From contig OZ316895.1 of assembly GCA_973895155.1 (NCBI GenBank), positions 18,547,880-18,611,879 on the forward strand: a stretch of DNA of 64,000 nucleotides, read 5' to 3'. Source of the DNA: Marsupella aquatica. Taxonomy: Eukaryota > Plantae > Marchantiophyta. The position numbers were made by a program, and so were the translations under genes. The notes beneath the pieces were generated by a model that searched no databases, was not told where the DNA came from, and was given only the letters and a program-made list of their open reading frames with translations. Numbering within the stretch: position 1 is the stretch's first letter; each line of letters opens with the position of its first letter. Positions 31,401-61,078 of the stretch are shown piece by piece.

Positions 31401-31946
31401 TGCACTTTCTCGGGGAGGGTCGCCGCCCCGCCTTTCCAGGTGTCATCCCTTATTGGAACGACATTAATGGGGTCAACCCTCTTCTTTGGCTTCTCCCTGC
31501 CTCCTGCTTCCCTGCTCGGCTGGCTTCTTGGGTGCCACCGACCTCATTCTTTTTGTAGGGGTGGCCTCTTCATTGATGTTCCCTTTCCTCTTCATAGCGG
31601 CTGCCGTGGATGTTTCTCCTAGCACGGTTGCCTTTGTCCACCCCTTTGTGCTACCCTTCAACTCCCAGTGTATGTCGTTGCAGCGGTTGATGGCCTCCCG
31701 GATGCCGACAATTCTGTTCTCGCAAAACAGAAGGTCGTCTAGCTCGTTGCCAATAGGTGTCCACAGGAATTCGGCCTTGATGAGTCCTCCTAAGAAGGCA
31801 GACTTCTACAGCTCCCATAGTCGAGCGAGCTTGTGCCTTTCTCGAGCTGCTCTCTCCGATTCTTTGTCTTCGTAGGTCCCAATGTACTCAGTTGCCCGTT
31901 CGAACAGGCATCCCCAAAAATGAGCAGCTTGATTGACGTTGCTCAT
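28475..31946 (-). pseudogene. Family B LTR gene, degraded
   Basis: Fragments 30875-31333, 30158-30694, 29159-30097 and 28475-29035. Confidence 0.88.
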
Positions 31947-32081
31947 ACCCTTCTTGAGTTGATTGTCAGTATCTGCTCCCACCCCAAGTGCTTGCCTAAG
32001 CAGCTGACAGTAGTTGGCCTCCCGTAGTCATCTGCTTAGTTTGTGCTTGCAAATGAGCCACCATTCCTTGCGATCGGTCCT

Positions 32082-36067: not shown

Positions 36068-36302
36068 GTCCTTACCCCCCCTTTGCCTGGTCTTCCTTCC
36101 CGTTGGTTACCCATAGCCGCCGGTACTTAGCGCGCCCTAACCCTAATCGTGTTCCCTCCCCCGGCGTCCTTACTTCCGGCCTCGGCTCGGGTTCCATAGT
36201 CACCCTTAATTGTTTATATTTTCCAGTTTTTTGTTACTATACTAATGTGTTTCCAGGGTACACTACTGATTTTACTATTTAAACTGGCCTAGTGATTCCT
36301 GG

Positions 36303-39300: not shown

Positions 39301-40495
39301 TCCCTTGCCGGTCTATTCGATTTTGAATTGGTGGTCAGCTTTCCTTCCTGACTCGATTCTGGGTTGTTTCTGTGCATCTCCTCCATCCCTGCTTCCTGGG
39401 TTTCAGGCCATTGTGCTCTTCCGGCTTCTAGTAGGGCCTCAATTTGTTCTGCCCTCGTGATCGGCTTGTAAGCCGATCCCTCAAATTTTAATTTGTTGCC
39501 GATGATAGACGGCGTTGTGGATCCTGTCGGCTCTGCCACAACGCCTGAGGAAAATCCATTGTCCCTGCTACAACTCTCCTCTTAGCCGTTTCATCCAACT
39601 GGTCCACCTCTCGTGCTTCCTCCGGAATTGAAGCTAAAAAGGTGGACTCTATGGCAAAGCAATCCTCGGTTTCTTCTTCACATTCTTCCAAGTCACTCTT
39701 CATAGGTTCTTGCCATAGTCCGCTGGGGGACACTTCTGGTCCGAAGACACTTTCTTTGGTTAGATAAGTGAGGCATTCTAGCCAACGTACCTCATCGACT
39801 GACTCCAGTCCATTGTCGTACCCGTCTACCTCTCTCATGCTTCTCCTATGGTCATCCTTGGTGTCCCAGGATACCGTGATAGAGGGGGTCCCAAAAATGA
39901 ACTCCTTCTTACCCCAATCATCTATTACCTTGGCTAGGTACAGCCATGGCCTGCCAATTAATAGTCGGAATGACATAGGATTTACCGGCTTCATCACTAC
40001 ATAGTTAATGCTAAAGAAAATACCTCCTATCTCTATCTTGATGCCGGTTAACACTCCCGTGGGAATGGCCTGATACCCATTGGCCATGTTCAACACTCTT
40101 CCAGTCATCTTCGGTGTTAGACCCCACCCTTTTGCTATTGAATCAATCATAATACATACCCCTGATCCTCCATCGATGGGAACTCGTAGTGATATTTCTC
40201 CTTGAATCATTAATGGTAATGCTGGGGCTCCTTGATCTTCTTCTATCATCAGCACGTCGGATCTGGTTGCTACCTTGGGTAATCTTGGCTTGCCGAGAAT
40301 GGCCTTCCTTAACTGTTTCCGAAAGTACGGGCTATTTTTCAACAATTGACCTACTATTGCCGAGACTCTAGATTCTAGTACATCTTTAGCCAGGTCATAG
40401 GGGACTATCGGCTTTTCTTCTGGTGGTGTCTCTATCTTGGTTTTGGCTTGTTTCACGTTGGTTTCCACTGGCGTTAGATTTTCAGAAGCAAACAA
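36303..40495 (-). pseudogene. Family B pol (PR-RT-RH-INT), degraded
   Basis: PIDGGSG protease, HFPLPFTD..FIDDF RT, FHVFVDV RH, VSDRGTHF integrase; stops and frameshifts. Confidence 0.93.
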
Positions 40496-42302
40496 TGCTT
40501 TTGCTCATTTCACGTCCTTGGCTATGGCTTCGATATTCTCCATGGTTTCTAATTCTTGGAGTTGTTCCTTAACACTAGCCGTAATAGAGGGGTAGAACAA
40601 CTTAGGGTGATCTCGATTGAAATCGCTGTCCTGTGAAGGATTGGGGTCACTAGTGAGCTCATGGCTTACCTGTGTTGCCGGCGCCTTTCCTTCCCTTCCG
40701 TTGATGTTGACAAAGAGTCGATCTTTTCTTCTTTAACCTTCCCTTTATTTTTGGCCAGCCGATCCCACCTTTCCTTCCTTCTAGTGGATCGAGTAGAGAC
40801 TCGGTAGCAATCATGATCCAAATCCTCTTCTGAGAATGTTGATAGGGCCTCGGCCTCATCATCAGATGGTCCAAACTCTGCCTCGGCATCCATTTGCCAT
40901 TCAAGTTTGATGTGGTTGATTTGAACTCCTCCTGGGGTAGTACCTGGAGGCAAGACTTTGACCGGCAAGAGCTTATGATTTGCGGCCAGTCTTGCCAACC
41001 AAGTAGGACATTGTCCTAGTATGTGACCCTCCTGTCTACATCCCATACATAGCTGAGCTGGTTGTCCATCACCTTGTTTGCGTGCATTTGGGCTTTCTTT
41101 AGCAAAATGGCCAGGTTGACCACAATTATAGCATGCCGCAAATCTTTGCACATTCGGTCTAGGAGGTACTGACGGATTCTGAATAATCCGAGGATACATT
41201 TCTCGTGGATTGTTCCTTAATCCTGACCAGAGAGATGCAGGTCGGTTGGATAGGTCTCGTGCTCCAGTCTCATTGATGCCAAAAACACTATCAGCGGCAT
41301 CCCCTAGGAAGTACTTTACTTCTCCCTAACATGGTCTAACTTCAGCTACATGCCGAACATGACTAGTATTGAGTTTAGGACATGCATCCTTATGGTGTCC
41401 GGTTTTATAACATAAGGCACACCATACAGAGCTATCCTCCAGTACTACTTTCTTCTTTGGCTTTACCTCTTCTATTATAGCCTTCAGCTACTCGGTAAGA
41501 GCTATGATATTATCTGTCATTTTAGCCTCTAGCTTGACTTTCAACTTCCCCCTCCTTCTACCCTTCTTTTCGTAGATTTTTCTTCTTCAGGACTAGAAGA
41601 TGACTCACTCTTGCTACTTCCACTATCCGAGCTTGAGTTATCACTTCTTGACTTCTTAGAATGTTTCTTTTTCTTATCTTTTTTCTTATGGGATGATCCT
41701 TCCTCCGACGAGGAACTCTCAGATTTGAGCTGTTTCTTCCGGCTTGTGATATCTGAATTAATGTACAATTGAATATCTCTAATTGCCATGGCTAAAGTCT
41801 CTGGGTTCTCTTTCCTAATTGCAAAACTCATCTTCTATGGCAAAGCATTCACCAACCATTGAAGTTGCATACCTTCAGATGCATTGGTCTTTGTACGTCG
41901 TACCAGCTTTTGAAAGCGTTACAAGAACTTCCTAAAGGATTTGTTGTGACGCCGCCGGTACGGCGGTTAATGAGTGATTCAGTCTAACTGCGCTCGGCAC
42001 GCGCATTAGGTGGGTCTTAGGCCGCTATTATTAGCATAACGACAGTATTTAGGTAATCATTAGGGGTAGGACATCATTAGGCAATAAGGGGGACTTCAGG
42101 TTCGGGCTGGCGGCGGGTCGCTATTCGCACACCCGGGTTACGAGCGTGGAGGGGCCCCTCCCTCGGGTCCATATAACGAACTTAAGGAAGCGGCCACTGA
42201 CGCACGCTGACTCAGACCGGCGGAGTGGCCGGTACACCACAAGCGTGAGCGGTTCAACCTATGGGCGTCGAGGAGACGTCGGGGATCGACAAGCCCTCAA
42301 AG

Positions 42303-42330
42303 TATAAAAGGGGAGCCAACCCTTTGTAGT
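42303..42330 (+). promoter_or_regulatory. Upstream TATA module (P1) ahead of the LTR gene
   Basis: TATAAAAGGGG-agccaa-CCCTTT, 108 bp before ATG 42411; present in all A copies. Confidence 0.6.
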
Positions 42331-42410
42331 GCACCAGTCCATCAGTCCGCGCGCCAGCTTCGACCCCAGCTCTCTCGTTCTCTCTAGGTCGCCACTACTA
42401 TCTCCTCTGA

Positions 42411-45032
42411 ATGTCGCACACGATCCTCTCCAGCTCGGCCATTCGATTCTGGACGCAGTTCCTATCTACCGGAAGGCACTTGGCCGATTCATTGAAACAC
42501 GCCAACCCGCGCCGATACGAGATCGAACGCGAATACGAGAGAGCCATCCGCCTAGCAGGACGACACCACTACGTCCTTAACTTTGACTACCCATCTCAGA
42601 GCGAGCTTTACCGACCAGCTGAGGTATCTGGGTACTTCTTCAACGGAGACAAATATATCAGGTTCTGGGAAGCATTGCTTCGGCTTCCGGACGAGGTCTT
42701 CAATATCCCGGGTACAATCGACCTGCAGCGACATCACTTCGACCACATCCCTGCCCAGGTTCGGGCTGTCATTAATAGCGAGTCCAGTACCAACCGTTCG
42801 ACAAGGGCGTCCGCACTCGCTTCGGAGAACTTCTACCAGCACCTACAGAGCTTCATGGGAACTCGGCCATCAACCAACATGACCAACTCAGCCGGACCCG
42901 TACCCGTACCCGTACCCGTGCCCATGCAACCTCAGCTTCAGCTTCAGCCTTAGCCGCGGCCTAGCCAAACCCCACCACCTATCACCCAGCCAGCACAGGT
43001 ATGCTCCGTCATCAACGCTGTGGATCTTAGCGATGACGACGAGGCTACCCCACCCTTGACCAGGCGGCCCAGAGGAACAAGCGCTCGGGGGGCCGACACT
43101 ATATCGTCCCCACCCCCTGCTCTGACCCCAGGAGCGGCCGTGGCCGCCCCGGGCCCGTTACCAACCGCAGTGGCACTCCCCAGGCCTGATCGGGAGGATG
43201 GGGAAGTATCACCTTCCCCGAGTCAGTCACGGGGAAAGAAGAGGAAGGAATCCGCCAGTGCATCCGGGTTACCGTTGGCCACGGTAGCCGTAGCCAAGGT
43301 AACGATGCATCGCATGGGGGAAAACGTTCACAGCAACATCCTCCATCCCAAGCATGCGGTGTACCTGAAGACTCAGGGATTTGAGCACCTCACCTCTCTC
43401 CCCTGGAACACTTGCAGGTACTACGGGGAGGACATGACAGAATTCGTCAAGAATTATGATGACGTACGTCAACAGACTCGGCTGCGGGGAAGGAATATGT
43501 CCCTCACAGAAGAACGGCTCAAGATGATCTTCGGGTTACCCGAAGGTGACCATCGAGTCGAATCACGGGCTCCCGGGGGCAAGGGGGCCAAGTACCAATC
43601 TTCAAGTTTTCCCTCAGAGGGATCAGTGGACAACGGGTTCGTGATGAGGACCTGCCTCATGCCCGAGATAGCTGAGCGGCTGGAGTTCCAGAGGTACGCT
43701 CTCCACATGATGGAACCCCGGGGGGAGATCTCCGCCGCCCAGGTCATCCAGGTCGAGAACTATCGACCTAGGAAATGGGCGTCGTACTTCGCTAAGAAAT
43801 TCCATGAAGAGATGGAGCGGCGAAGGGAGACGCTGTACATTGGCGGGAAAGCGTATTTCGCTAGCCACATCGAAATCATTCTTGAGTGGTACGCCCGGTT
43901 TGATCGACGAACCCTTCCCCGCATCAACATTACAAAGCTGGTCCCAGCTAGGTGGGTTTTTCCGGCATTGGAGAGACGGCCCCAACCCGAGGCCCGAAGT
44001 CCAGTGGACACGCCAGCTTCACCCACCCCACCTCCACAAATAGCTGTAATTGTAACCGAGGAGGCGCCGGAGGGGTCGGTCGTCGCAACCGTTGATGCGA
44101 CCCAACTAGCCGGGCTAAGTACAGAAGTTGGTACGGCATAGGTCTTACCCGAACCCGGGTCTCCCAAGGACCCGCCGGTGGCAATTCCGGAGAACCGGAC
44201 ATCGCTGCAGGAGGACACTCCAGCCCCTTCCAACGTTATGTCCCCAGGGCTGGACGTCACTACCCCGGCCCCTGCGCGTGTTGATGTCTGCCCGTGCCCA
44301 AATCCGGACAGGCACAACTTGGACCACCCGGAACTCTTCGTACAGGGTACGTTTCTGAACGGGCTTCTGGGAGATTTCTCTCATCAAATTGCCCGGGATA
44401 CCGGGGAGTTCATGGCCAGGAAGGTAGCCTGTTTCTTCAATCAGGAGTTGGTTGCCGCCGTAAAGGCAGGTCGGGCCCAGTCGGAGGCCCTTCAGAGGAT
44501 AGAGCGGTACCGGGTGGAGTCCGTGTACCTAAAGAACGAAGTGGCGGCTCAAGAGGCTGAGCGTCTGCAACTACGACCCAAGGTTGCAGCCGCCGATGAG
44601 TTGTTAGCAAAGGCGTACGCTCTTACCGCCCTAGCCGAACAGGCCAAAGCTGGGAACGAGGCCGAGATTACACGACTCCGGAACCAGATTGACAGTTTGA
44701 AGAAACAAGCTGTCACCTGGCAGAAAGACCTGGAGGAGGCCGAGGAGCGAGCCCAGCGGGACGCGAAGGAGATAGTCACGCTGCAGGCCGAGATGGCGCG
44801 GCTCCAAACCGAGGCCGAGAAGCAGGACCAGCTGGCGAGTAAACTGACGAGCGACGCCCAGCAGCTGGAGGAGGCATGTCAGGAGGCAGCAGAGGAGACG
44901 GACGCGGCGAGGCGAGAGAACGAATCTCTACTGGACCAGGTCCAGCTCCTCAAAGCGGACAATGACAGGCTTCGAAGGCAGCGGGATGGCCGTTCCCATT
45001 CGGGCGGCTCTGGCAAGCGTGCCAGGCATTAG
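42411..45032 (+). pseudogene. Family A LTR gene (873 codons), two in-frame stops
   Basis: Single frame with TAG at 42951 and 44139. Confidence 0.9.
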
Positions 45033-45247
45033 CGGCGGAGTAGGAATAGATTAGGATTAGGATTGGCTTAGTCAGGCTCTTGGGACAGGCACCTGCCTTA
45101 GGTACAGCAGCGCTGCCCTGCTGTCCAGCCTGCGTAGATTAGGATCTTCTAATAAGACACAGCCGTTTTCCGGCCTGACTGTCAGCTTAGTTAGGACCTT
45201 GGTCAGCGGATCTTCGGCGGGAGGACGCCCCGTTCCTCGGCTCTTAG

Positions 45248-45293
45248 TATTTAGTGCACCCCTCGGTAGAGGCAAGGGGGGGGTTTTTAGTTT
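45248..45293 (+). promoter_or_regulatory. Downstream TATA-like module (P2), candidate genomic-RNA promoter
   Basis: TATTTA-gtgca-CCCCTCGGTAGAG..GGGGGG-ttttagtt; resembles the sequence after the family C TATATA. Confidence 0.5.
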
Positions 45294-45944
45294 CAGAGTC
45301 GGACATCCGCGGGACATGCGGGGAGTCCCGACCTCTGGGAATGACAGAGTACCAAGGGGAGGGGGTAGGACTAAGCTCGCCGGGCGAGTGCGGAGCCGGG
45401 CTCCGTTGTAGTGTGCACCCTTGGCCTTGAACCTGTGCATTCCAGGGCTGTCGTGTCAACTAAGTGTACGCATATGTTCCCTTTGTAGTAAAATCCTTTC
45501 CCATCATTTTTCCTTCGTGTAAATCGAGATTGTATGCATGTGTGCGCATATGTGTGTGGGTTTCTCGTATATGGGTGGCAGCACCGGGCCGAACGCACTA
45601 CCCGAGACGTGCACAGGGTGCAGCTTGCGGGTAAGTGGTTGCGAGCACGGGTTGAGGACCTGTATCATCGAATCCGGATCGAAGGCGGACAGCACGAAGG
45701 CTTAGAAGCCCTTAAGCCCGGGTCAATCCTGCTATCGACTAAGGTACGTTCCGGCGGCGGAACACAAACCATACCTAGGAGGTGTCCGTATTTAGCAGTA
45801 TGCGCACTTAGCGCTAGTTTACGAGAATAAGGTGCATTACGTGCTTCCCTTCCTGCCCAAACCCTCAGATTTACGAGGGATGTGCCCGTCTAAGCTGAAG
45901 TCTGAGTTAAGGCCGAAGCCTACGACGTGACATAGCCTTTGTTT

Positions 45945-45964
45945 TGGCGCTAGATGGAGGGGGC
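45945..45964 (+). promoter_or_regulatory. Primer-binding site
   Basis: TGGCGCTAGATGGAGGGGGC, 12 nt after the LTR; identical in family B. Confidence 0.8.
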
Positions 45965-46055
45965 ACTCTACATATCATAGAGGGGAGACATGTGCGTATT
46001 CACCTAGGCAGGATACATCAGGACGTAGTACTAACCATTGCATTTATATGAGTAA

Positions 46056-48134
46056 ATGCCCGTCACTCGTTCTCAAGCAGCTTACTTGAGGAGATTGACC
46101 AGCGAACGAGAAAGTGCAACCACAACAAGCTCCGACTCGTCGGGCTCGGAGGACTCGCAATCGTCCCGACATATGAACATACCCCCAGGATCTTCGGGGT
46201 CCGGTTCGACCGGCCCTGCTGCGGTTCCACCACCACCACCACCACCACCACCACCTATGGCAGCCGCTCCACCGGTGGCCCGCGCTGCTCAGGCGCCTCC
46301 ACAAATATCGCAACGATCGCGATTTCATTATCGACCTTTCAAAGGGCGTCATGGGGATGATCCGGATGAATGGTTGGATGAGTTTGAAGCCACTGCTAAA
46401 GCTAATGGGGAAGACGCCATTAAGCTAACCGTCCTCCCGGGAGTAATGCGGGGAGAAGCTCGTCCATGGTACAACTCGTTACCACCCGGGACTACCTGGG
46501 CACAATTCCAAGCTGCATTGCTGCAGGAGTTTCGTGCCATTGGATCAGAACAGCGTTCTCTATTAAAGATTGGCCAGCTTCGCATGGGAAAAAAAGAGTC
46601 CCTGCGGAAGTTCATTCAGAAGTTTCAAAAACTTGCGGCCAAGATCCGGCCCAGGCCAGGAGACGCGCTCCAGCTTACATGGTTCCTTCATGGTTTGCCC
46701 ACGAATATGCAATTCTGGGTACGCCAGAATAATCCAATTTCAATGCAGGCGGCCATAGCGTGCGCCGAAACTTACCGGGAGTCCACCTATAACTCCCGGC
46801 GGAGCCAGCGAGCACGCCGCAGGAAGGGTAAGTATGAAACCTTCAGTGACAGTGACTCCGAATCGGACGACGAGAGGAAGAAGAAACGGAAGAAGAAGAA
46901 GAAACATCGTTCGACCTCGTCCAGCTCCGAGACGGAATCCAGTTCGGATTCAGCTTCAAGCATCGGATCCTCTACCTCCAGTTCATCAGGAAGTGACTTG
47001 GAGAGCGAAAGCCGGAGCAAAAAGAAGAAGAGACGAGTGAAGAAGGAGGGGAAGATTAAACCCCGGGCGCGAAGAACGATACCAGATCCAAAGGCTGCCA
47101 AAGCAGACAAGCTGAACGAAATCACGGATCGACTCAAAGCACTGTCAATACATCTTGCGGAGAAGCCGGTGGAGAAGAAGAAGCCATCTGAGATTCGAGC
47201 CCATGCGTAGTGTTCAAAGTGCTTCCAATCCGGCCATGTGGTGCAGGAATGCCCAAGGTGGAAGAACCGAGTTCACCAAGTAGAGCTGGATGATGTTGAC
47301 AACCCGGGCCCCGAATCAGAGTCCACGGAGTATTTCTTTGAGGACCCTCCTGATTCTGTGTACCAGATTTCAACGGTTGGTCCGCGTAATTTAGCTGGTA
47401 GAACTGCGTACCCCTACCCAAGTAATGGCCGGAGTTTCCAGGTTATCAGTAACCCGAGCATCCCTCCTAAGCCAGGGATTTGGCGGTCCCCGGTTTGTTA
47501 CAACTGTGAAAAGCCAGGACACTTTGCGAGGGAATGCACCGAACCAAGACGTCAGGGAGATGGCCGAGGCACCCCACTATGTCAAGTTTGCAAAACGGAG
47601 GCTCATTCCACGGCCAACTGTCCGTTGGTAATCGTTGCTCGAACAAGTGCGGCTAGACCGGCCTAGGCTGGACCAGTCACGAGCGATGCAGTCGTCCAAA
47701 TGATTGCTGTAGAATGGCAAGATGACAACACCGAGTGGGTGAATCTGGTGGACGTGGCGGAACACCCTAATCCATTGGATGAGGCCGAGTGCTACCGAGT
47801 GTCGACAAGGGCCGAACGGAAGGAAGAAAAGACGGAGGAGAAACGGAGGAAAAAGCAAGATACTACTCCGGTGCAGCCAGCGATAAATATACCCCCGGAA
47901 AAGGACGATGACTACCGACGGGACGACCCGAAGCTGTTTTTCCCCCGCATCGAAGAATTGGTAAAGAAACAGCTGGAGGCTTACGAAGCTCGGGAATACC
48001 AGAAGGCAATCGATAAGGACATCAAAGCAGCCGAGACAGCCCGACGTTAGGAGCAAGAAAAGCAAGATAAACAAGAGGAAGCCAAGCAGTAGCCAACGAA
48101 AGAAACAAAGGAGGACTATGATATTAAGGAGGAC
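46056..48134 (+). pseudogene. gag: Family A gag region (same frame as pol; four TAG stops)
   Basis: DPDEWLDEFE..GEARPWY capsid-like block; three CX2CX4HX4C knuckles; all fragments share the pol frame. Confidence 0.9.
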
Positions 48135-51100
48135 GTGAAGAGTTGCCCGGTTACAGCGACGGTGGGGCAACTGCTGCAGAACAACCCACAGTACAGACGA
48201 CAACTGAGGGAGTTGCTCATGGGTCGCCGAAGGAGAAGACTACCCCGAGTTGGGAGTGCGGACTGCAACATGATATGCGAGGACCTTGGAGCGCCGGACA
48301 TCTCGATCGAAATTAATAACTGTACCATCAAGATGGTTCTTGTAGACGGAAGAGCGGGAGTCAACATCATGACTGAAGAAACGTCAGTCAAGTTAGGATA
48401 CCTCACGTATCAACCCACGGCCCGAGCTATCAGATTAGCAAACGGGGCAAGGGTCCTCCCATTAGGCACGCTCACACGAGTGCTCACTCTGGTGGGAGGG
48501 GTAGAGTTCTATCTCAACTTCTTAGTCATGAGGCCGGTTCATCCCTCCTCTTATCCGGTTCTTCTGGGCAGGCCGTGGCTGTACGGTGGCCGTGTAGTCA
48601 CGGATTGGGGAAAGAAGGAGCTACGGTTCGAGGAACCCACCGTACGGGTATCCTGGGCAATGGACGATTATCAGGGAGAAACCCCACAAGGACCCGAGGA
48701 ATATGATTCGGAGACCTCGGAGGAAGAGGAACTCAATATGATCGAACTCATCTCGTCCCTATCCGAGGAAGATGTCTTCGGAGTTGAAGCAACCCGAGAA
48801 ACACATCTCCTAAATTACCCGAGGGCTGCCATTGAGTCCACCCCAAGTACATCTACTGTCGGGGATGAGGAAACGCACGAACAACTCATCGAGACGGAGG
48901 ACACGGCTCCAGCCAAGCAGGGAGCCGAGGCTACTCCTTCCATTTCAGAGCCTTGTAACCATGAACCAGCCCAACAACCGCCTGAGGCCGAAAACTCGAG
49001 ACCGAGACATAAAAAGCGAGTCTCATGGGATCCGTCCATTCCGCAATTGGAGGAAGTAAACCCCATCCCGAGACCAATCCCGGTCCCACCCATGTACGGA
49101 GGGGTTCGGTTAGCTGAGCTTGACGCGAGCCTGGACCCGAGTCTGCGAAACCAGGTTGAAGTCATCAGGAAGGAGCACTACCGGAAGTACACTATTGGGA
49201 TGGACAAATCTTTTAACCTGGGCCACGCTTTGACGGGGAAGGTTGAAAAAGCCATCCAAGCTTTGCTCAAGGAATATGAAGATGTGTTTGCATGGAGTCA
49301 TCATGATTTAACAGGCGTCTCCCCCGAGTTGGGAGAACACACAATCGATCTGAACCTAGGAGCCCATGCGGTACGACAGCGACAACGTCGCATGAATCCG
49401 AGGTACTCCATCTTAGTGAAGGAGGAAATTGATCGTCTCCTCGCCGCCGATATCATTTACCCGGTAATGGCCAGCGACTGGGTCTCTCCCATTGTCATTG
49501 TACCAAAGAAGGGAGGTACGGATGGAAAACCTAAGATTCGTATCTGTCAGGACTACCGTAAGCTGAATGACGCAACCCGAAAAGACCATTACCCATTACC
49601 ATTCACGGATATGGTTCTAGATATGGTGGCCCGAAATGAAATCTATACATTTCTTGACGGGTATTCAGGTTATAACCAAATCTGGATTCGTCTCGCGGAT
49701 CAGCTCAAAACAACTTTCACTACGGAGTGGGGAACGTTCGCATTTCGGAGGATGCCTTTTGGTCTGTGTAACGCCCCGGCTATGTTTCAGCGCCTTATGA
49801 TGAATATCTTCCACGATTTCCTACGGGAATTTTTGGAGATATTTATCGATGACTTTGCCATCTTCGGAACCGTTGCCATGCACCCCGAACACCTACGACG
49901 AACGTTGCAACGATGCCGAGATGTTAACCTCAAACTACATCCCGCCAAATGCTTCTTCGGGGTAGAGGAGGGGGTGTTACTCGGGCATCGTGTGTCCAAA
50001 CGGGGCATTGAGGTGGACCAAGAGAAAGTTGCGGCCTGGATGGCGGTGGTGTTCCCCTTGGATCAAAAAGCAGTACGATCCTTCTTGGGCTGCGTAGGGT
50101 ATTACCGCCGGTTCATTAAAGACTTTGCTAAAATTGCGTTGCCCTTAACTGAGATGATGAAGAAGGACGCAGCGGTCGAGGAGACACCCCGGAGACGGAT
50201 TGCTTTTGAGGAACTCCGTAAACGACTCACCACCGCGCCTATCATGGTCACCCCAGACTGGAATAAGGAGTTCCACGTGTATGTCGATGTGTCAGGGTTC
50301 TGTATCGGATCCGTACTTAGTCAGCTAGATGAGGATGGACGTGATCACCCCATCTATTTCGCTAGCCGTCAACTATTTGCAGCCGAAAAGAATTATTCCC
50401 CCACTGATCGAGAAGCTTTGGGAATAATCTACTCGTGTAAAAAGTTCCGACACTATCTGCTAGGCTACAAGGTCATTTTCCACACGGATCATGATAGCCT
50501 GAAGTACATGGTCAACAAAGCGGATGTGACAGGACGGATAGCCCGGTGGGTGCTACTTCTCCAGGAATTTCATTACGAAGTTCAGGTTCGGCCAGGAAGG
50601 GTACACCTCAATGCCGATTTCTTTTCACGACTGGACGGCGTACCAGTCGATCAGCCAATTGATGATATTTTTCCGGATGAGGAGTTGTTCCACGTGGGGG
50701 AAGGGACACCAACGTGGTACGGCTCAATAATCACCTTCCTTTTAACGGGCCGCATCCCTGACGGCATCAATCAGGAGGCCGCCGCTGTGTTTTTACGGAA
50801 AGCCGGGCCTTACGTCATGATACAGGGTCACCTACATAAGGAAGGTATTAACGGAAAGTTACGACGCTGCTTAGAGTATAAGGAGACACTTATCGTGATA
50901 CGGGCCCTGCATGAAGAAGAAGCTGGAGGCCATTTCGCGGCAGTTACGATAGCCCGAAAGATTCTGGACTCGGGGTATTGGTGGCCTACGTTGCATCGGG
51001 ATGTACAGTGCTTCATTAAGGGCTGTGACTTGTGTCAGCGAGCGGGGGCCCCGAGGCGGGCTCATCATCACCCGCTCACATCTGTGCTTCCATTGGCACC

Positions 51101-52055
51101 ATTCGAAAAATGGGGAATTGATTATATCGGACCGTTCACTCCCGTTACCCGAAGGCGAAGGTGCAAGTACATCCTATTAGCTATTGATTACTCCACCAAA
51201 TGGGTCCAAGCGCGGGCTACGGTAAAGGACGACGCCGCAACCAGTGCCAGATTCTTATACGAACAGATTTTCACCCGATTCGGACCGCCCTTAGAATTGG
51301 TAAGCGACCGTGGAACCCACTTCCTCAATGACACCGTAGCCCAGCTTACGGAGCGTTACCTAGTCAAGCACCGCAAGACTACCCCATATCATCCTAAAGC
51401 CAACGGGATGGCGGAGAGAGCAAATGGTATCATTGGGAAGATCCTCAACAAAACTGTAGCTGCGCACAAAACGGATTGGGATGATAAGTTGTACGCGGCG
51501 GTGTACTCGTATAATCTAGCTTACAAAACTACTACGAGTCATAGCCCGTACTTTCTGGTGTTCGGCCAACATTCGTTGGTGCCCGTCGAATTTGAAGTGC
51601 ACACTCCACGGGTCAGCATTCGGGATCGCTTACCTGAATCTGAAAGTCTGTCAGACCGAGCTTATCAGATTGAAGCCTTGGAAGAAGCACGGCTACTGGC
51701 AGCTCGACACACCGTGAAGAAACAGGCAACTTCGAAGAAGCAGCACGACAAAGGACTACGGAGGGTCGACGTCGTGGCAGGCGATCTAGTCCTTCTGTAC
51801 GATAGTAGGTACATGCAGTTTCCAGGGAAGCTGCATACCCGGTGGTTGGGGCCCTTCCTTGTCAATCAGATCTACCGAAACGGATCTTTGGAGCTTGCGA
51901 CGTATGCCGGCGATTTACTCCCCACGCGAATCAGCTACGATCGTGTAAAAAAGTACCACCATCAAGACGACGACGCCGATAGCGATGTTCGCGAGGACGC
52001 TTCACAATTAAGCAGGGAGCTATGTGACGCTGCCAGTACGGCGGTTAATGAGTGA
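48135..52055 (+). CDS. pol: Family A pol, 1306 open codons (PR-RT-RH-INT)
   Basis: LVDGRAG, HYPLPFTD, FIDDF, VYVDVS, HHCC and DDE integrase motifs; stop lies inside the 3' LTR. Confidence 0.95.
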   Translation: MKSCPVTATVGQLLQNNPQYRRQLRELLMGRRRRRLPRVGSADCNMICEDLGAPDISIEINNCTIKMVLVDGRAGVNIMTEETSVKLGYLTYQPTARAIRLANGARVLPLGTLTRVLTLVGGVEFYLNFLVMRPVHPSSYPVLLGRPWLYGGRVVTDWGKKELRFEEPTVRVSWAMDDYQGETPQGPEEYDSETSEEEELNMIELISSLSEEDVFGVEATRETHLLNYPRAAIESTPSTSTVGDEETHEQLIETEDTAPAKQGAEATPSISEPCNHEPAQQPPEAENSRPRHKKRVSWDPSIPQLEEVNPIPRPIPVPPMYGGVRLAELDASLDPSLRNQVEVIRKEHYRKYTIGMDKSFNLGHALTGKVEKAIQALLKEYEDVFAWSHHDLTGVSPELGEHTIDLNLGAHAVRQRQRRMNPRYSILVKEEIDRLLAADIIYPVMASDWVSPIVIVPKKGGTDGKPKIRICQDYRKLNDATRKDHYPLPFTDMVLDMVARNEIYTFLDGYSGYNQIWIRLADQLKTTFTTEWGTFAFRRMPFGLCNAPAMFQRLMMNIFHDFLREFLEIFIDDFAIFGTVAMHPEHLRRTLQRCRDVNLKLHPAKCFFGVEEGVLLGHRVSKRGIEVDQEKVAAWMAVVFPLDQKAVRSFLGCVGYYRRFIKDFAKIALPLTEMMKKDAAVEETPRRRIAFEELRKRLTTAPIMVTPDWNKEFHVYVDVSGFCIGSVLSQLDEDGRDHPIYFASRQLFAAEKNYSPTDREALGIIYSCKKFRHYLLGYKVIFHTDHDSLKYMVNKADVTGRIARWVLLLQEFHYEVQVRPGRVHLNADFFSRLDGVPVDQPIDDIFPDEELFHVGEGTPTWYGSIITFLLTGRIPDGINQEAAAVFLRKAGPYVMIQGHLHKEGINGKLRRCLEYKETLIVIRALHEEEAGGHFAAVTIARKILDSGYWWPTLHRDVQCFIKGCDLCQRAGAPRRAHHHPLTSVLPLAPFEKWGIDYIGPFTPVTRRRRCKYILLAIDYSTKWVQARATVKDDAATSARFLYEQIFTRFGPPLELVSDRGTHFLNDTVAQLTERYLVKHRKTTPYHPKANGMAERANGIIGKILNKTVAAHKTDWDDKLYAAVYSYNLAYKTTTSHSPYFLVFGQHSLVPVEFEVHTPRVSIRDRLPESESLSDRAYQIEALEEARLLAARHTVKKQATSKKQHDKGLRRVDVVAGDLVLLYDSRYMQFPGKLHTRWLGPFLVNQIYRNGSLELATYAGDLLPTRISYDRVKKYHHQDDDADSDVREDASQLSRELCDAASTAVNE

Positions 52056-55000
52056 TTCAGTCTAACTGCGCTCGGCACGCGCATTAGGTGGGTCTTAGGC
52101 CGCTATTATTAGCATAACGATAGTATTTAGGTAATCATTAGGGGTAGGACATCATTAGGCAATAAGGGGGACTTCAGGTTCGGGCTGGCGGCGGGTCGCT
52201 ATTCGCACACCCGGGTTACGAGCGTGGAGGGGCCCCTCCCTCGGGTCCGTATAACGAACTTAAGGAAGCGGCCACTGACGCACGCTGACTCAGACCGGCG
52301 GAGTGGCCGGTACACCACAAGCGTGAGCGGTTCAACCTATGGGTGTCAAGGAGACGTCGGGGATCGACAAGCCCTCAAAGTATAAAAGGGGAGCCAACCC
52401 TTTGTAGTGCACCAGTCCATCAGTCCGCGCGCCAGCTTCGACCCCAGCTCTCTCGTTCTCTCTAGGTCGCCACTACTATCTCCTCTGAATGTCGCACACG
52501 ATCCTCTCCAGCTCGGCCATTCAATTCTGGACGCAGTTCCTATCTACCGGAAGGCACTTGGCCGATTCATTGAAACACGCCAACCCGCGCCGATACGAGA
52601 TCGAACGCGAATACGAGAGAGCCATCCGCCTAGCAGGACGACACCACTACGTCCTTAACTTTGACTACCCATCTCAGAGCGAGCTTTACCGACCAGCTGA
52701 GGTATCTGGGTACTTCTTCAACGGAGACAAATATATCGGGTTCTTGGAAGCATTGCTTCGGCTTCCGGACGAGGTCTTCAATATCCCGGGTACAATTGAC
52801 CTGCAGCGACATCACTTTGACCACATCCCTGCCCAGGTTCGGGCTGTCATTAATGGCGAGTCCAGTACCAACCATTCGACAAGGGCGTCCGCACTCGCTT
52901 CGGAGAACTTCTACCAGCACCTACAGAGCTTCATGGGAACTCGACCATCAACCAACATGACCAACTCAGCCGGACCCGTACCCGTACCCGTGCCCATGCA
53001 ACCTCAGCTTCAGCTTCAGCCTCAGCCGCGGCCTAGCCAAACCCCACCACCTATCACCCAGCCAGCACAGGTACACTCCGTCATCAACGCTGTGGATCTT
53101 AGCGATGACGACGAGGCTACCCCACCCTTGACCAGGCGGCCCAGAGGAACAAGCGCTCGGGGGGCCGACACTATATCGTCCCCACCCCCTGCTCTGACCC
53201 CAGGAGCGGCCCCAGCAGACAACATGGTGACCGTGGCCGCCCCGGGCCCGTTACCAACCGCAGTGGCACTCCCCAGGCCCGATCGGGAGGATGGGGAAGT
53301 ATCACCTTCCCCGAGTCAGTCACGGGGAAAGAAGAGGAAGGAATCCGCCAGTGCATCCGGGTTACCGTTGGCCACGGTAGCCGTAGCCAAGGTAACGATG
53401 CATCGCATGGGGGAAAACGTTCAGAGCAACATCCTCCATCCCAAGCATGCGGTGTACCTGAAGACTCAGGGATTTGAGCACCTCGCCTCTCTCCCCTGGA
53501 ACACTTGCAGGTACTACGGGGAGGACATGACAGAATTCGTCAAGAATTATGACGACGTACGTCAACAGACTCGGCTGCGGGGAAGGAATATGTCCCTCAC
53601 AGAAGAACGGCTCAAGATGATCTTCGGGTTACCCGAAGGTGACCATCGAGTCGAATCACGGGCTCCCGGGGGCAAGGGGGCCAAGTACCAATCTTCAAGT
53701 TTTCCCTCAGAGGGATCAGTGGACAACGGGTTCGTGATGAGGACCTGCCTCATGCCCGAGATAGCTGAGCGGCTGGAGTTCCAGAGGTACGCTCTCCACA
53801 TGATGGAACCCCGGGGGGAGATCTCCGCCGCCCAGGTCATCCAGGTCGAGAACTATCGACCTAGGAAATGGGCGTCGTACTTCGCTAAGAAATTCCATGA
53901 AGAGATGGAGCGGCGAAGGGAGACGCTGTACATTGGCGGGAAAGCGTATTTCGCTAGCCACATCGAAATCATTCTTGAGTGGTACGCCCGGTTTGATCGA
54001 CGAACCCTTCCCCGCATCAACGTTACAAAGCTGGTCCCAGCTAGGTGGGTTTTTCCGGCATTGGAGAGACGGCCCCAACCCGAGGCCCGAAGTCCAGTGG
54101 ACACGCCAGCTTCACCTACCCCACCTCCACAAATAGCTGTAATCGTAATCGAGGAGGCGCCGGAGGGGTCGGTCGTCGCAACCGTTGATGCGACCCAACT
54201 AGCCGGGCTAAGTACAGAAGTTGGTACGGCATAGGTCTTACCCGAACCCGGGTCTCCCAAGGACCCGCCGGTGGCAATTCCGGAGAACCGGACATCGCTG
54301 CAGGAGGACACTCCAGCCCCTTCCAATGTTATGTCCCCAGGGCTGGACGTCACTGCCCCGGCCCCTGCGCGTGTTGATGTCTGCCCGTGCCCAAATCCGG
54401 ATAGGCACAACTTGGACCACCCGGAACTCTTCGTACAGGGTACGTTTCTGAACGGGCTTCTGGGAGATTTCTCTCATCAAATTGCCCGGGATACCGGGGA
54501 GTTCATGGCCCGGAAGGTAGCCTGTTTCTTCAATCAGGAGTTGGTTGCCGCCGTAAAGGCAGGTCGGGCCCAGTCGGAGGCCCTTCAGAGGATAGAGCGG
54601 TACCGGGTGGAGTCCGTGTACCTAAAGAACGAAGTGGCGGCTCAAGAGGCTGAGCTTCTGCAACTACGACCCAAGGTTGCAGCCGCCGATGAGTTGTTAG
54701 CAAAGGCGTACGCTCTTACCGCCCTAGCCGAACAGGCCAAAGCTGGGAACGAGGCCGAGATTACACGACTCCGGAACCAGATTGACAGTTTGAAGAAACA
54801 AGCTGTCACCTGGCAGAAAGACCTGGAGGAGGCCGAGGAGCGAGCCCAGCGGGACGCGACGGAGATAGTCACGCTGCAGGCCGAGATGGCGTGGCTCCAA
54901 ACCGAGGCCGAGAAGCAGGACCAGCTGGCGAGTAAACTGACGAGCGACGCCCAGCAGCTGGAGGAGGCATGTCAGGAGGCAGCAGAGGAGACGGACGCGG

Positions 55001-56026
55001 CGAGGCGAGAGAACGAATCTCTGCTGGACCAGGTCCAGCTCCTCAAAGCGGACAATGACAGGCTTCGAAGGCAGCGGGATGGCCGTTCCCATTCGGGCGG
55101 CTCTGGCAAGCGTGCCAGGCATTAGCGGCGGAGTAGGAATAGATTAGGATTAGGATTGGCTTAGTCAGGCTCTTGGGACAGGCACCTGCCTTAGGTACAG
55201 CAGCGCTGCCCTGCTGTCCAGCCTGCGTAGATTAGGATCTTCTAATAAGACACAGCCGTTTTCCGGCCTGACTGTCAGCTTAGTTAGGACCTTGGTCAGC
55301 GGATCTTCGGCGGGAGGACGCCCCGTTCCTCGGCTCTTAGTATTTAGTGCACCCCTCGGTAGAGGCAAGGGGGGGGGTTTTTAGTTTCAGAGTCGGACAT
55401 CCGCGGGACATGCGGGGAGTCCCGACCTCTGGGAATGACAGAGTACCAAGGGGAGGGGGTAGGACTAAGCTCGCCGGGCGAGTGCGGAGCCGGGCTCCGT
55501 TGTAGTGTGCACCCTTGGCCTTGAACCTGTGCATTCCAGGGCTGTCGTGTCAACTAAGTGTACGCATATGTTCCCTTTGTAGTAAAATCCTTTCCCATCA
55601 TTTTTCCTTCATGTAAATCGAGATTGTATGCATGTGTGCGCATATGTGTGTGGGTTTCTCGTATATGGGTGGCAGCGCCGGGCCGAACGCACTACCCGAG
55701 ACGTGCACAGGGTGTAGTCTGCGGGTAAGTGGTTGCGAGCATGGGTTGAGGACCTGTATCATTGAATCCGGATCGAAGGCGGACAGCACGAAGGCTTAGA
55801 AGCCCTTAAGCCCGGGTCGATCCTGCTATCGACTAAGGTACGTTCCGGCGGCGGAACACAAACCATACCTAGGAGGTGTCTGTATTTAGCAGTATGCGCA
55901 CTTAGCGCTAGTTTACGAGAATAAGGTGCATTACGTGCTTCCCTTCCTGCCCGAACCCTCAGATTTACGAGGGATGTGCCCGTCTAAGCTGAAGTCTGAG
56001 TTAAGGCCGAAGCCTACGACGTGACA
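52023..56026 (+). repeat. Family A 3' LTR (4004 bp)
   Basis: Follows PPT 52010-52019; TG..CA ends. Confidence 0.95.
52489..55125 (+). pseudogene. Family A LTR gene (878 codons), single in-frame stop
   Basis: 581-aa and 284-aa ORFs in one frame, separated by TAG at 54232. Confidence 0.9.
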
Positions 56027-56608
56027 TTTGTTCTCCTTGAACCGAAGTTGTCCCAACTTCAGCACTGCTAGCTCTGAGGTTCCAATAGGTCAAAACTCCT
56101 TGACAAATAGCATTTTGGAGGAATGCCAGATGGCTTGATCTTCCACATTCAATGCTTTGTACCAAGGCCTAGCCTCACCCTTGAACAGGTCGGGAAGAAT
56201 TTGCATCTTGATGGCTGATTCTCCATTTGCTGCAGTGGTTCCCTCAAAGTCATCCAACCATTTGTCTGGATCCTCATCTCCTCTCCCATGAAATGCCTTG
56301 TAATGAATGCGCGACCGTTGGCTCAGTGTGGTTCCTGGCCTCTCTTCTGGCCGTGCCTCCGGTTCCCCCATGTCGGTTGGGGACTTACTTCTCCTTACCG
56401 ACTCCTCTTATGGTATTTCTTCTTCGATGCCACTTTCAGTTACGGAGCTACTAGCTCTTTTTGCCCCTCTCAGTCGTTGTGTATCATGCCACTCGGCAAG
56501 CTGCTGCAGACAAGCTCTCTCCCGTTGAATCGCTCTTTCCTCCCTCGGCGTAGGTTCAGTCATTACCTACGCTTCCTTCCTTACTTCATATCTCACGGCT
56601 TAAAAAAT

Positions 56609-56628
56609 GCCCCCTCCATCTAGCGCCA
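56609..56628 (-). promoter_or_regulatory. Primer-binding site of the family B element
   Basis: Reverse complement TGGCGCTAGATGGAGGGGGC, 4 nt from the LTR end. Confidence 0.8.
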
Positions 56629-56632
56629 AAAA

Positions 56633-59600: not shown

Positions 59601-61078
59601 TGATCCAGCACACTCCACTTCAATCGCCAAACATTTTTCCCGATGACACCGTCATGGTAGCGGTGGCTAATCCTCAATGGATGCCCCCAATGCTTCCTCC
59701 GCAACCACTGCCGTAGGTCCGTCCTCTGACAGATTACGTGCCCCAGACCCAGTCAACTCACCCGCGGCCTGACTGAGTCCACCCTCGGCTTTGGCCTCAG
59801 CATCGGCCACGGCCTCTAATACGGCTATGGCCTCCCCGACATGCTCTAGTGGTGGATCCGGTACCCCGGCTTCATCACTGAGTGTCTTGGCCTCGGCTTT
59901 GCCATCCCCACCTTCTAGGGCAGTTGGATCCTCTGCCGTGACCCTGCCTGCGGTTGGTGCCGGGTTTACCTCCTTGGTCACGACGGCTTGAGAAGCCGCA
60001 TTACTCCCTGATCTAGAAGGTTTCCGCTTCTTCTTCTTCCCTGGTTCAGCAGCTGGTCCCTTCCCCTTGCCACTTACTTCCGGCGCCTGTGCGAGTGTTG
60101 CGGCTTGTCCTTTGGCCAGTACTACTCCTGGCAACTTGGTTGCCCCAATTGGAGTTGGACTTGATGAAGCCAAGCACTTAAATACTGCAGCTTGTTTCTT
60201 TAGCCGCTCCGTTTGGTTGTCGGCTCGCCGTTGTAAGTTCTCCATCTTCCTCGTGCATTCCTCCAACTCCTCCTGCACTTCGTCCAGGTCCTTGCACGCC
60301 TCCTCCAGCTCCTTCTCGGCTTCCTCCAACTCTTTGTGGGCTTCCTCCAACTTCTTTAAGGTAGCCCTCTCCTCCGGGGTTGCTCTTAGCTCCTTGTCGA
60401 GGTCCGTTATGACCTCAGACTCCATTTTATTCATCTTGGCATAAGTTTGATCAAGCTGGTTGTCTTTCTCATGCAGGTCGGCCTTGAAGCTGGCTGTCAG
60501 GGATGCAAGCTCCTGCCGTAGCACAATAATCCCTTGATAGGATTTCCCTAACTTGGCCTCCTTCTGCTCAAGGGCTCCGCGGATATCCTTGAGCTCCCCC
60601 TTCAATGCCCTCTCCCTTCTCTGGGTTTCCGCCATGGCCCAATTGTTGGCTACTATGTGGACCTCCTCTACGTCCCTCAGCTCCCGCTTCCACTTCTCCC
60701 TCTCCTTGACTGCATCGGCCAACTCCCCCTGGGTTCGAGTCAGTTTATCCTTGATAATCTGATTATCAGACTGAGCGGTATCCAATTGCCCCTGAATGAT
60801 GTTTAGCTCATGCCGCTTAATCCGTAGCTCATCTTGGGCTTTCCTATCCGCCTTCAGGTCTTCCACCTCGGCTTCCCTTGCCCTAAGCCGACGGATGACC
60901 TCGTCCTTCTTGCTTCTCTCCAAAGCCACCGCTTCTTCTAATCGGCGTTTTTCCAACATCTCCCTCTGGAAAAAAGGTCCCTACTCCAACACCTCCCCAA
61001 AGATGCTGAGCGCAAGTTCCCCACACATCTCCCCGTACTCCATGGCTCTTTCTTTAGCATAGGTGGAGTGAGTAGAAG
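56633..61078 (-). repeat. Family B 5' LTR, visible 3' part, including the C-terminal LTR-gene fragment 59667-60959
   Basis: Close match to 27605-29900; interrupted at 57533 and 61079. Confidence 0.9.
57533..59648. mobile_element. Probable solo LTR of an unrelated family (2116 bp)
   Basis: tgtc...gaca ends, flanks ccat/ccgt, absent from the partner LTR, pyrimidine-rich and non-coding. Confidence 0.7.

What the first reader, a model, noticed from the sequence alone, without database searches (positions are those of the whole stretch)
41945..56026. Complete Gypsy element with the accessory gene duplicated in both 4-kb LTRs
Seen: LTRs make up 7992 of 14082 bp, and each holds an 873-878-codon sense ORF. 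The PBS and PPT sit at the inner edges of these repeats and the TSD at the outer edges, so the ORF is truly inside the LTR. Known: extra ORFs of Athila, Tat/Retand and Ogre lie in the internal region. Inference: plus-strand priming moved upstream of an ancestral post-pol ORF and pulled it into U3; a purine-rich tract after the B stop (~18168-18195) may be a relic PPT.
Basis: partly seen in the sequence, partly recalled or inferred. Interest (0 to 1): 0.88.

Follow-up and report, generated by a model that had tools for sequence, protein, structure and literature searches.

The report
Anti-silencing-like gene inside retrotransposon LTRs
A jumping gene, likely of a non-seed plant, carries a conserved 2.6-kb extra protein gene wholly inside both of its 4-kb end repeats and in its leftover solo repeats, and the core of that protein is predicted to fold like VANC21, which suggests it likely binds the element's own DNA to counter host silencing.

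Summary
Largely confirmed. 41945-56026 is a young Ty3/gypsy non-chromovirus (5-bp TSD, LTRs 3988/4004 bp, 98.9% identical). The extra ORF is truly inside the LTR: solo LTRs with their own TSDs carry it, and a sister family B has a homologous LTR gene. Correction: this copy is not intact (2 and 1 stops in the LTR ORFs, 4 in gag-pol). The gene is under purifying selection (dN/dS 0.22 in A, 0.19-0.29 in B). New: its ~200-aa core is predicted (pLDDT 94) to fold like the anti-silencing DNA-binding protein VANC21 (Z 8.2, next hit 2.4). In three relatives the homologue lies between pol and PPT, so the LTR position is likely derived. An ORF-less sibling solo LTR in the window (family C) has its TATA block homologous to sequence downstream of the ORF, which favours U3. 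The proposed priming shift is not supported in its simple form: the PPT/LTR junction is the ancestral one and the 'relic PPT' is weak. No RNA data were available. The scan noted the same layout before on other DNA (fungal and one other genome; untested here). I found no plant case in 10 literature searches.

The parts
41940..41944 (+). left target-site duplication (TTTGT); right copy 56027-56031
   Evidence: empty-site joint in run X3
41945..45932 (+). 5' LTR of family A, 3988 bp, TG...CA
42006..42080 (+). TTAG/ATTAGG cluster in the LTR head (6 TTAG)
42303..42312 (+). canonical TATA box followed by a CT-rich leader, 108 bp before the ORF start; likely the accessory gene's own promoter (3' copy at 52381)
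   Evidence: sequence; function inferred
42411..45032 (+). accessory ORF, 5' LTR copy, 873 codons, 2 internal stops
45051..45290 (+). TTAG cluster right after the ORF stop (10 TTAG)
45244..45285 (+). degenerate TATA-like site (45248) plus G-run, homologous to the TATA block of the ORF-less family C LTR; likely the ancestral genomic promoter (3' copy at 55341)
   Evidence: function inferred
45749..45778 (+). short motif conserved in the LTR tails of families A, B and C
45945..45962 (+). primer-binding site, identical 18-mer in family B; tRNA-Asn type by recall only; 12-nt spacer from the LTR end (11 nt in L001)
46056..52055 (+). single gag-pol frame of 1999 codons (gag, zinc knuckle, RT, RNase H, integrase; no chromodomain or extra RNase H hit), 4 stops, ends 33 bp inside the 3' LTR
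51984..52027 (+). conserved pre-PPT motif, PPT (52010-52022) and LTR start; homologous to the true PPT/LTR junction of outgroup L001
52023..56026 (+). 3' LTR, 4004 bp
52489..55125 (+). accessory ORF, 3' LTR copy, 878 codons, 1 internal stop: N-terminal helical domain (about aa 1-120), Pro-rich linker with basic cluster, VANC-like core, linker, C-terminal coiled coil; no transmembrane stretch
53386..54042 (+). conserved core domain predicted to fold like VANC21
32082..36067 (+). solo LTR of family A with own TSD (GTCCT), holding the whole ORF (one frameshift, one stop)
4331..13096 (+). older, internally deleted family A element (LTR 93% identical); no matching TSD; its LTR is split by the C solo LTR
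9592..11994 (-). solo LTR of family C, 2403 bp, TSD CCAGC, no ORF; 3' part collinear with the post-ORF tails of A and B; tandem TTAG arrays
14406..19056 (+). solo LTR of family B, 4651 bp, TSD GTTGT, with an open 1121-codon homologous ORF (14779-18144)
21950..26680 (-). second solo LTR of family B, TSD CAAAG, ORF decayed
27605..61078 (-). decayed full-length family B element; element A is inserted in its gag, the solo A LTR in its 3' LTR; same PBS and PPT motifs as A

Best explanation
This is a decaying copy of a Ty3/gypsy non-chromovirus family, likely of a non-seed land plant, whose conserved accessory gene lies wholly inside the LTR, likely in U3 behind its own promoter, and encodes a protein predicted to have a VANC21/PMD-like DNA-binding core that would bind short motifs in the LTR and counter host silencing. 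Shown: the boundaries, the presence in solo LTRs, purifying selection, the homologous gene in sister family B, the internal position in three relatives. Inferred: (1) the head TATA at LTR position 359 drives an accessory mRNA that ends at the LTR's own poly(A) region, so both LTRs and every solo LTR would be a complete gene cassette; (2) the genomic RNA starts downstream of the ORF, near the TATA/G-run block shared with family C, so gag-pol stays the first cistron and the ORF is copied from the 3' end as part of a long U3; (3) the gene got there by duplication of the PPT/LTR-start junction upstream of it, or by relocation into U3, during template switching, not by use of a new priming site; (4) the protein is nuclear, oligomerises through its coiled coil and recognises family motifs such as the TTAG(G) clusters.
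For: Solo LTRs with TSDs carry the ORF. B depth is high along all 4.65 kb and drops about 200-fold past 19056, and no listed joint skips the ORF in A or B (only the best-supported 15 joints per call are shown). dN/dS 0.22 over 872 codons for A versus the older copy (p 1e-22), 0.19-0.29 for three B pairs, 0.09-0.12 in the B core; pol control 0.13; B codons 19-104 neutral (1.0-1.7). A and B cores are 29% identical, E 1e-18; 73 relatives at E<=0.001; 3 of the 9 looked up carry names, from Calypogeia (2) and Riccia (1). Model pLDDT 93.7. Of 48161 chains only VANC21 scores Z>=5 (9lnk, Z 8.2, rmsd 4.1, 203 aligned; next 2.4); Foldseek 9lnj probability 0.99, TM 0.55. ESM Atlas lists DUF1985 and PMD clusters at 0.88; relative P0171 hits DUF1985 at E 8e-5, below cut-off. 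No hydrophobic stretch (max KD19 1.18), basic clusters present. U3: C tail versus A tail score 131.5 (0 of 100 shuffles), versus B tail 60 (0 of 100); C's TATATAG + G-run block matches the older A copy's tail 32 of 37, E 4e-5; L003's internal ORF also has its own TATA and pyrimidine-rich leader (sequence). TTAG 19 versus 7.4-7.6 expected in non-coding LTR parts of A and B (0 of 300-500 shuffles); TTAGG is not enriched in 6 of 6 outgroup repeats; L001 repeats another motif, GCGCTA. Private substitutions fall at CG 46.6, CHG 37.8, CHH 7.4 per 1000 C, so the host methylates this element.
Against: No transcript data: start and end sites are inferred. The tail TATA is degenerate in A and not recognisable in B, while the head TATA is canonical and resembles a TATA in L025's LTR. 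The VANC21 match is moderate: 9-10% identity, Foldseek E 0.025, Z 8.2 close to the level the tool calls typical for models without clear matches; Atlas scores under 0.9 are leads only; the window's own core has no Pfam hit to DUF1985, PMD or Transposase_32. The same fold is shared with host MAIN/MAIL proteins that help silence transposons (PMC13547354, PMC5418596, passages), so fold does not fix direction of effect. The ORF-less C LTR has the densest TTAG array (27 versus 13.6), each outgroup repeat has some enriched 5-mer, TTAG is also high in L071 (3 of 300), and for B 7 of 150 shuffles reach the TTAGG z-score; the motif may be a host enhancer. These copies are methylated and decaying. Only two ORF-in-LTR families, both from this genome, were seen; C may have lost the ORF rather than never had it.
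Confidence: 0.55

Rival explanations
1. The ORF lies in R/U5: the head TATA is the only LTR promoter, the accessory ORF is the first cistron of the genomic RNA, and gag-pol is made from a spliced or separately started RNA.
For: The head TATA is canonical and kept in 4 of 4 A copies, B has TATAAA in 3 of 3 full LTR heads scanned; the tail TATA is degenerate; A's leader has a TACTAAC 27 nt before the gag ATG (46029).
Against: The ORF-less C LTR has its TATA block homologous to the tail, not the head (C versus A head 33 and 99 of 100 shuffles); B's leader before gag shows no TACTAAC; it would need a minus strong-stop DNA of about 3.6 kb (inference).
Confidence: 0.25
2. One reading: plus-strand priming shifted from the LTR-proximal PPT to a second PPT right after pol, pulling the ORF into U3; the old PPT survives as a relic after the stop.
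For: L001 does have a PPT-like tract right after pol, upstream of its internal ORF; the A and B tails (900, 912 bp) are close to L001's LTR length (about 990 bp); the B tract scores 3 of 200 shuffles against L001's upstream tract.
Against: The present junction matches the outgroup's true junction on both sides, including the TGTGA start (0 of 200), which a new site would not have; the relic is absent in A, mostly absent in B3, and resembles the wrong one of L001's two tracts.
Confidence: 0.2
3. The protein is a DNA-binding accessory factor with another job (transcriptional activator of the LTR, Polycomb antagonist, or integration tether), sharing the PMD/VANC fold but not removing DNA methylation.
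For: PMD-C proteins with this fold counteract Polycomb at gene promoters (bioRxiv 2024.09.27.615353, passages); Retand TRP28 proteins were proposed as transcription regulators (PMC11963269, passages); an extra conserved N-terminal domain has no clear fold match (best Z 5.6); copies here are methylated.
Against: The only solved match is VANC21; motif clusters in non-coding parts and tandem arrays in C resemble VANC target layouts (PMC5735166, passages).
Confidence: 0.3
4. The 4-kb repeats are not true LTRs but a local duplication or assembly artefact around a shorter LTR.
For: Assembly overlaps can mimic this layout: L003 shows a duplicated ORF for that reason.
Against: TSD at outer edges, PBS and PPT at inner edges, solo copies with their own TSDs, 43 substitutions and 3 indels between the two LTRs, an empty-site joint.
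Confidence: 0.02

Closest known systems
Athila clade and other OTA non-chromoviruses with a sense extra ORF after pol (Transposase_32, PF20167; Neumann et al. 2019, PMC6317226; Vicient and Casacuberta 2020, PMC7264820)
   Same: 5-bp TSD, single gag-pol frame, no chromodomain, no extra RNase H, sense extra ORF with globular domain plus coiled coil; profile match of the core to internal ORFs of Athila-like loci (hhalign 50%, E 1.6e-4, 143 columns), two of which hit PF20167 below cut-off.
   Different: Here the ORF is inside both LTRs and the internal region is only leader plus gag-pol; RT-RNase H groups with liverwort and unnamed sequences, apart from angiosperm Athila; no transmembrane stretch.
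VANC21/VANC6 of VANDAL (Mutator-like) DNA transposons (Hosaka et al. 2017, PMC5735166; PDB 9LNJ/9LNK)
   Same: Predicted fold of the core (Z 8.2, 203 of 219 residues); coiled coil; short motifs clustered in non-coding parts of the element.
   Different: VANC is on a DNA transposon and described as dicot-specific (PMC13547354, passage); 9-10% identity; binding and demethylation not tested here; extra N-terminal domain.
PMD proteins: Gypsy-encoded PMD-A (Ogre/Tat) and host MAIN/MAIL1 (Ikeda et al. 2017, PMC5418596)
   Same: Fold family shared with VANC (PMC13547354, bioRxiv 2024.09.27.615353, passages); carried by Gypsy elements as an extra ORF.
   Different: No PMD Pfam hit here; described from angiosperms and as internal-region ORFs.
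MMTV sag, lentiviral nef, foamy-virus bel genes (recalled, not from a call)
   Same: A protein gene in or overlapping U3; for sag, present in both LTRs.
   Different: Retroviruses of animals; unrelated proteins; sag is about 1 kb against 2.6-3.4 kb here (recalled).
Phygy and Selgy (Neumann et al. 2019)
   Same: Non-seed-plant non-chromoviruses whose polyprotein fills nearly the whole internal region.
   Different: They have 4-bp TSDs, Trp/Thr or Ala primers, 4.4-10 kb length and no extra ORFs; this element has a 5-bp TSD and 14 kb.

Membership tests
Ty3/gypsy LTR retrotransposon | gag, RT, RNase H, integrase in that order between LTRs with TSD, PBS, PPT | tested here: met
   the protease region gave no Pfam hit in this copy
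non-chromovirus | no chromodomain after integrase; RT groups with Athila-type elements | tested here: met
   no chromodomain hit; 100/99 clade of 43 rows with angiosperm Athila-type proteins against 8 distant rows, midpoint root
Athila clade | RT/RH/INT phylogeny inside Athila | tested here: inconclusive
   falls outside the angiosperm group that holds the PF20167-fused protein P0088; no REXdb reference sequences were available, so clade limits are unknown
Athila clade | 5-bp TSD, no additional RNase H, single gag-pol ORF | tested here: met
   native RNase H motifs present and about 100 aa to the integrase zinc finger
Athila clade | tRNA-Asp/Asn/Ala primer | not tested
   Asn assignment is from recall; a paper search for the motif gave nothing relevant
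Athila clade | extra ORF in the internal region after pol | tested here: not met
   ORF is inside the LTR; pol runs into the 3' LTR
Tat (TatI-III, Ogre, Retand) | additional RNase H domain | tested here: not met
   aRH-less Tat Z clades exist in Marchantia (PMC10508981, passages) and were not tested against
Phygy / Selgy | 4-bp TSD, no extra ORF | tested here: not met
   5-bp TSDs at 5 insertions of A, B and C
VANC (DUF1985) anti-silencing proteins | VANC21-like fold | tested here: met
   predicted model only: Z 8.2, rmsd 4.1, 203 aligned; TM 0.55, E 0.025
VANC (DUF1985) anti-silencing proteins | Pfam DUF1985 above cut-off | tested here: not met
   no hit for the window's core; 1 of 35 relatives hits below cut-off
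VANC (DUF1985) anti-silencing proteins | encoded by a Mutator-like DNA transposon | tested here: not met
   encoded in a Gypsy LTR
VANC (DUF1985) anti-silencing proteins | family-specific short motifs clustered in non-coding regions | tested here: inconclusive
   TTAG(G) enriched in A, B and C; other motifs in outgroups; motif enrichment is common in LTRs
VANC (DUF1985) anti-silencing proteins | sequence-specific DNA binding and demethylation of the family | not testable with these tools
   needs ChIP, EMSA, methylome
U3-encoded gene | genomic start site downstream of the ORF | tested here: inconclusive
   inferred from homology with family C; no transcript mapping possible

The most novel reading that the evidence does not exclude
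A lineage of high-copy plant retrotransposons has moved a VANC-type sequence-specific anti-silencing gene into U3, so that every integration doubles it and every solo LTR left by host recombination remains a working promoter-gene-terminator cassette flanked by its own binding motifs: removal of the element to a solo LTR would not disarm it, and solo LTRs would de-silence the family in trans. It would also place the VANC/PMD fold on Gypsy elements of non-seed plants, long before the dicot VANDAL system.
Probability: 0.35. Interest if true: 0.88.

Novelty: new variant of a known kind. Interest (0 to 1): 0.74.

Why it matters
Reviews place extra ORFs of plant LTR retrotransposons in the internal region and call their function unknown. 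A 2.6-3.4 kb gene under selection inside the LTR changes what a solo LTR is: not a dead scar but possibly a live gene. The VANC21-like fold gives a concrete, testable function for this class of accessory proteins (including the Athila 'env-like' Transposase_32 type it is distantly related to), and bears on whether VANC/PMD anti-silencing began on retrotransposons.

Tried and rejected
No whole genome is held for this window. No RNA holder listed; this is no evidence on expression. Word-index searches with the whole ORF and with its first 140 aa found nothing. Pfam finds only coiled-coil noise for the ORF. No PDB sequence match; no viral fold match at E<=0.001. The N-terminal domain model (pLDDT 69) matches only generic helical bundles. 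A locus search with the domain alignment was not possible, so loci were fetched by pol; viral contigs gave none. Of 159 loci the core profile hit 1 clearly (L001) and 3 weakly (L039, L043, L025); none showed an ORF in a true LTR pair, but most are short or distant. L003 looked like a second ORF-in-LTR element and was rejected as a contig overlap: its PPT and 1.4-kb LTR follow the ORF. L008 and L039 have downstream ORFs but their LTR bounds were not found, so they are not counted as internal. Head-versus-tail similarity within A or B, and of either to L001's LTR or spacer: none (8 of 8 such pairs at chance, plus 3 cross-family pairs). Alternative genetic code: considered because all internal stops are TAG, rejected because B copy 1 and pol run over 1100 codons without one and the other window copies lack them at those places. 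Summed contig depth (LTR about 2-3 times internal) is not a copy number and was not used. Literature: searches (ORF within/encoded within the LTR) returned 0 papers; others returned none that, by title, abstract start or passages read, describes this layout in plants; 39 was irrelevant. Not held, so unseen: Tanaka et al. 2026 (VANC21 structure), Sasaki et al. 2022, Wright and Voytas 2002; Steinbauerova et al. 2011 was not looked up. [quoted passage not shown]

Full report
Observation. Self-comparison of the window gives a 4-kb direct repeat at 41945-45932 and 52023-56026. Both copies start TG and end CA, the pair is flanked by TTTGT, a PBS-like 18-mer follows the left copy after 12 nt and a PPT precedes the right copy. 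They differ by 38 transitions, 5 transversions and 3 indels (K2P 0.011). A contig of run X3 reads across the site without the 14082 bp and one TSD copy. Between them is one 1999-codon gag-pol frame with gag, zinc knuckle, RT, RNase H and integrase hits. Four of these six distinct stop positions appear among the listed rows, where nearly all depth in runs X1-X3 shows another letter (for the stop shared by both LTRs, contigs that bear it may be laid on the other LTR); the other two are not among the rows shown. The copy is structurally complete but defective. Private substitutions among A copies are concentrated at CG and CHG (46.6 and 37.8 per 1000 C, CHH 7.4), as expected for a methylated land-plant element.

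The ORF is part of the LTR. A third copy of the whole repeat at 32082-36067 has its own TSD, so the 4-kb unit recombines as an LTR. A sister family B (69% identical in RT-RNase H) has 4.65-4.73 kb LTRs, the same PBS and PPT motifs, two solo copies with TSDs, and an ORF that is open for 1121 codons in one copy. In public runs B is covered along its whole length and falls about 200-fold at its end; no listed joint removes the ORF from A or B (each shows only its 15 best joints). The ORF is a real gene: dN/dS is 0.22 for A against the older copy (872 codons, p 1e-22), 0.19-0.29 for three B pairs and 0.09-0.12 in the B core, against 0.13 for pol; the 86 codons before B's conserved start are neutral; young A pairs give 0.45-0.54, not significant.

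Lineage. The best named pol relatives are from Riccia and Marchantia (46-59%), after unnamed metagenome proteins up to 74%; named relatives of the accessory core are from Calypogeia and Riccia (3 named of 9 looked up). In a 51-row RT-RNase H tree A and B sit in a 100/99 clade with P0001, P0085, P0002; L001 and two Riccia proteins branch outside; angiosperm Athila-type proteins form a separate group (midpoint root; rows with short matches were left out). The host is therefore likely a non-seed land plant (inferred). 5-bp TSDs and the extra ORF exclude Phygy and Selgy, the lack of an extra RNase H excludes canonical Tat. It works like an Athila-type element; membership is unresolved.

What the protein is. 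A and B share a core of about 185 aa (29%, E 1e-18). A profile of it finds 73 relatives. With 45 sequences AlphaFold2 gives pLDDT 93.7. Against 48161 representative chains the single match with Z>=5 is VANC21 bound to DNA (Z 8.2, rmsd 4.1, 203 aligned; next 2.4); Foldseek ranks VANC21 first (probability 0.99, TM 0.55, E 0.025). The ESM Atlas lists DUF1985 and PMD clusters at 0.88, behind unnamed plant clusters. The profile also matches L001's internal ORF (95.6%, E 1e-8) and, more weakly, internal ORFs of Athila-like loci (50%, E 1.6e-4), two of which hit Transposase_32 below cut-off. The protein has no transmembrane stretch and has basic clusters and a C-terminal coiled coil (weak coiled-coil families), so 'env-like' does not fit. 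VANC21 binds a short motif in non-coding parts of its own transposon and removes methylation (PMC5735166, passages); VANC and host MAIN/MAIL share a fold (PMC13547354; bioRxiv 2024.09.27.615353; passages); PMD-A is Gypsy-encoded (PMC5418596, passages). The match is moderate and a fold shows no function; the same fold serves host silencing too.

Candidate target motif. TTAG occurs 19 times in the non-coding LTR parts of both A and B against about 7.5 expected (0 of 500 shuffles), on the sense strand, clustered in the head and right after the stop. TTAGG is not enriched in 6 of 6 outgroup repeats, and L001 repeats GCGCTA instead. Against this, every repeat tested has some enriched 5-mer, B's TTAGG is matched by the best 5-mer of 7 of 150 shuffles, and the ORF-less C LTR has the densest arrays. 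It is a lead only; a host enhancer is as likely.

U3 or R/U5. A canonical TATA with a CT-rich leader lies 108 bp before the ORF, which at first suggested R/U5. But the 2.4-kb insert at 9592-11994 proved to be a solo LTR of a third family, C, with TG...CA ends, a TSD and no ORF. Its 3' part is collinear with the post-ORF tails of A (0 of 100 shuffles) and B (0 of 100), and its TATATAG plus G-run block is homologous to a block 215-255 bp after A's stop; it shows no significant similarity to A's head. A TATA followed 25-30 nt later by a G-run is also seen in the LTRs of L003 and L025. L003's internal ORF has its own TATA and pyrimidine-rich leader. So the ancestral LTR promoter likely lies downstream of the ORF and the head TATA is likely the gene's own. 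A's tail TATA is degenerate and B's is not recognisable, so present use is unproven (about 70 to 30 for U3).

How it got there. In L001, L003 and L025 the homologue lies between pol and the PPT, with LTRs of 1.0-1.6 kb; the LTR position is likely derived, on sparse sampling. However, the A/B junction matches L001's true PPT/LTR junction over 45 nt on both sides of the boundary (0 of 200 shuffles), not the upstream tract, and the proposed relic is weak, absent from A and mostly absent from B3. Duplication of the junction upstream of the gene with loss of the old one, or relocation of the cassette into U3, fits better (inferred).

Novelty. Vicient and Casacuberta (PMC7264820, main text read) and Neumann et al. 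(PMC6317226, passages and additional file 5) place extra ORFs in or around the internal region; passages of PMC11728184, PMC11963269, PMC10508981, PMC12859917 and PMC12885004 name no LTR-borne gene and no VANC link for Gypsy ORFs. Ten searches found no plant case (listed under Tried and rejected); three relevant papers were not held. Genes in U3 are known from MMTV and other retroviruses (recalled), and this scan has noted the layout in fungal and one other retrotransposon (untested), with no look-alike sequence and no VANC note. Verdict: new variant of a known kind, interest 0.74.

Noticed in passing
window LTR positions 1188-1208 of the 3' LTR (about 53210-53230): A 21-bp in-frame indel differs between the two LTRs of the same element; the 5' LTR shares its state with the solo LTR and the 3' LTR with the older copy. 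This points to gene conversion or intermolecular strand transfer and makes LTR-based dating uncertain.
   Followed up: partly
window 9592-11994 (-): Family C solo LTR inserted into the older A LTR, with 26-, 16- and 33-bp tandem units built on TTAG; its internal region is unknown.
   Followed up: partly
window 45933-45944; L001 7566-7576: Unusually long spacer (11-12 nt) between LTR end and PBS in A and L001, only 4 nt in B; L001 uses a different PBS.
   Followed up: no
window 46029-46035: Branch-point-like TACTAAC shortly before the gag ATG of A; not seen in B's leader.
   Followed up: no
L001 3720-3790 and 6530-6580: Two PPT-like tracts flank the internal accessory ORF; motif GCGCTA repeats in its LTR, leader and ORF.
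   Followed up: partly
window 52023-52055: The pol frame ends 33 bp inside the 3' LTR, so the PPT is coding sequence.
   Followed up: no
window 57530-59646: 2.1-kb AT-rich insertion in the 5' LTR of the full-length B element, single copy in the window, no long ORF or Pfam hit.
   Followed up: partly
window 19365-19886: CACTA-type transposase fragment (Transposase_21, E 1e-35).
   Followed up: no
window 18211-19056, run X1: One contig runs from the end of the B LTR back to 18211, the start of the tail (depth 448 against several hundred thousand): a rare tandem duplication of the 846-bp tail or an assembly artefact.
   Followed up: no
L080-L159: Many Gypsy elements sit in contigs of prokaryote genome bins, which points to eukaryotic contamination of those bins.
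   Followed up: no
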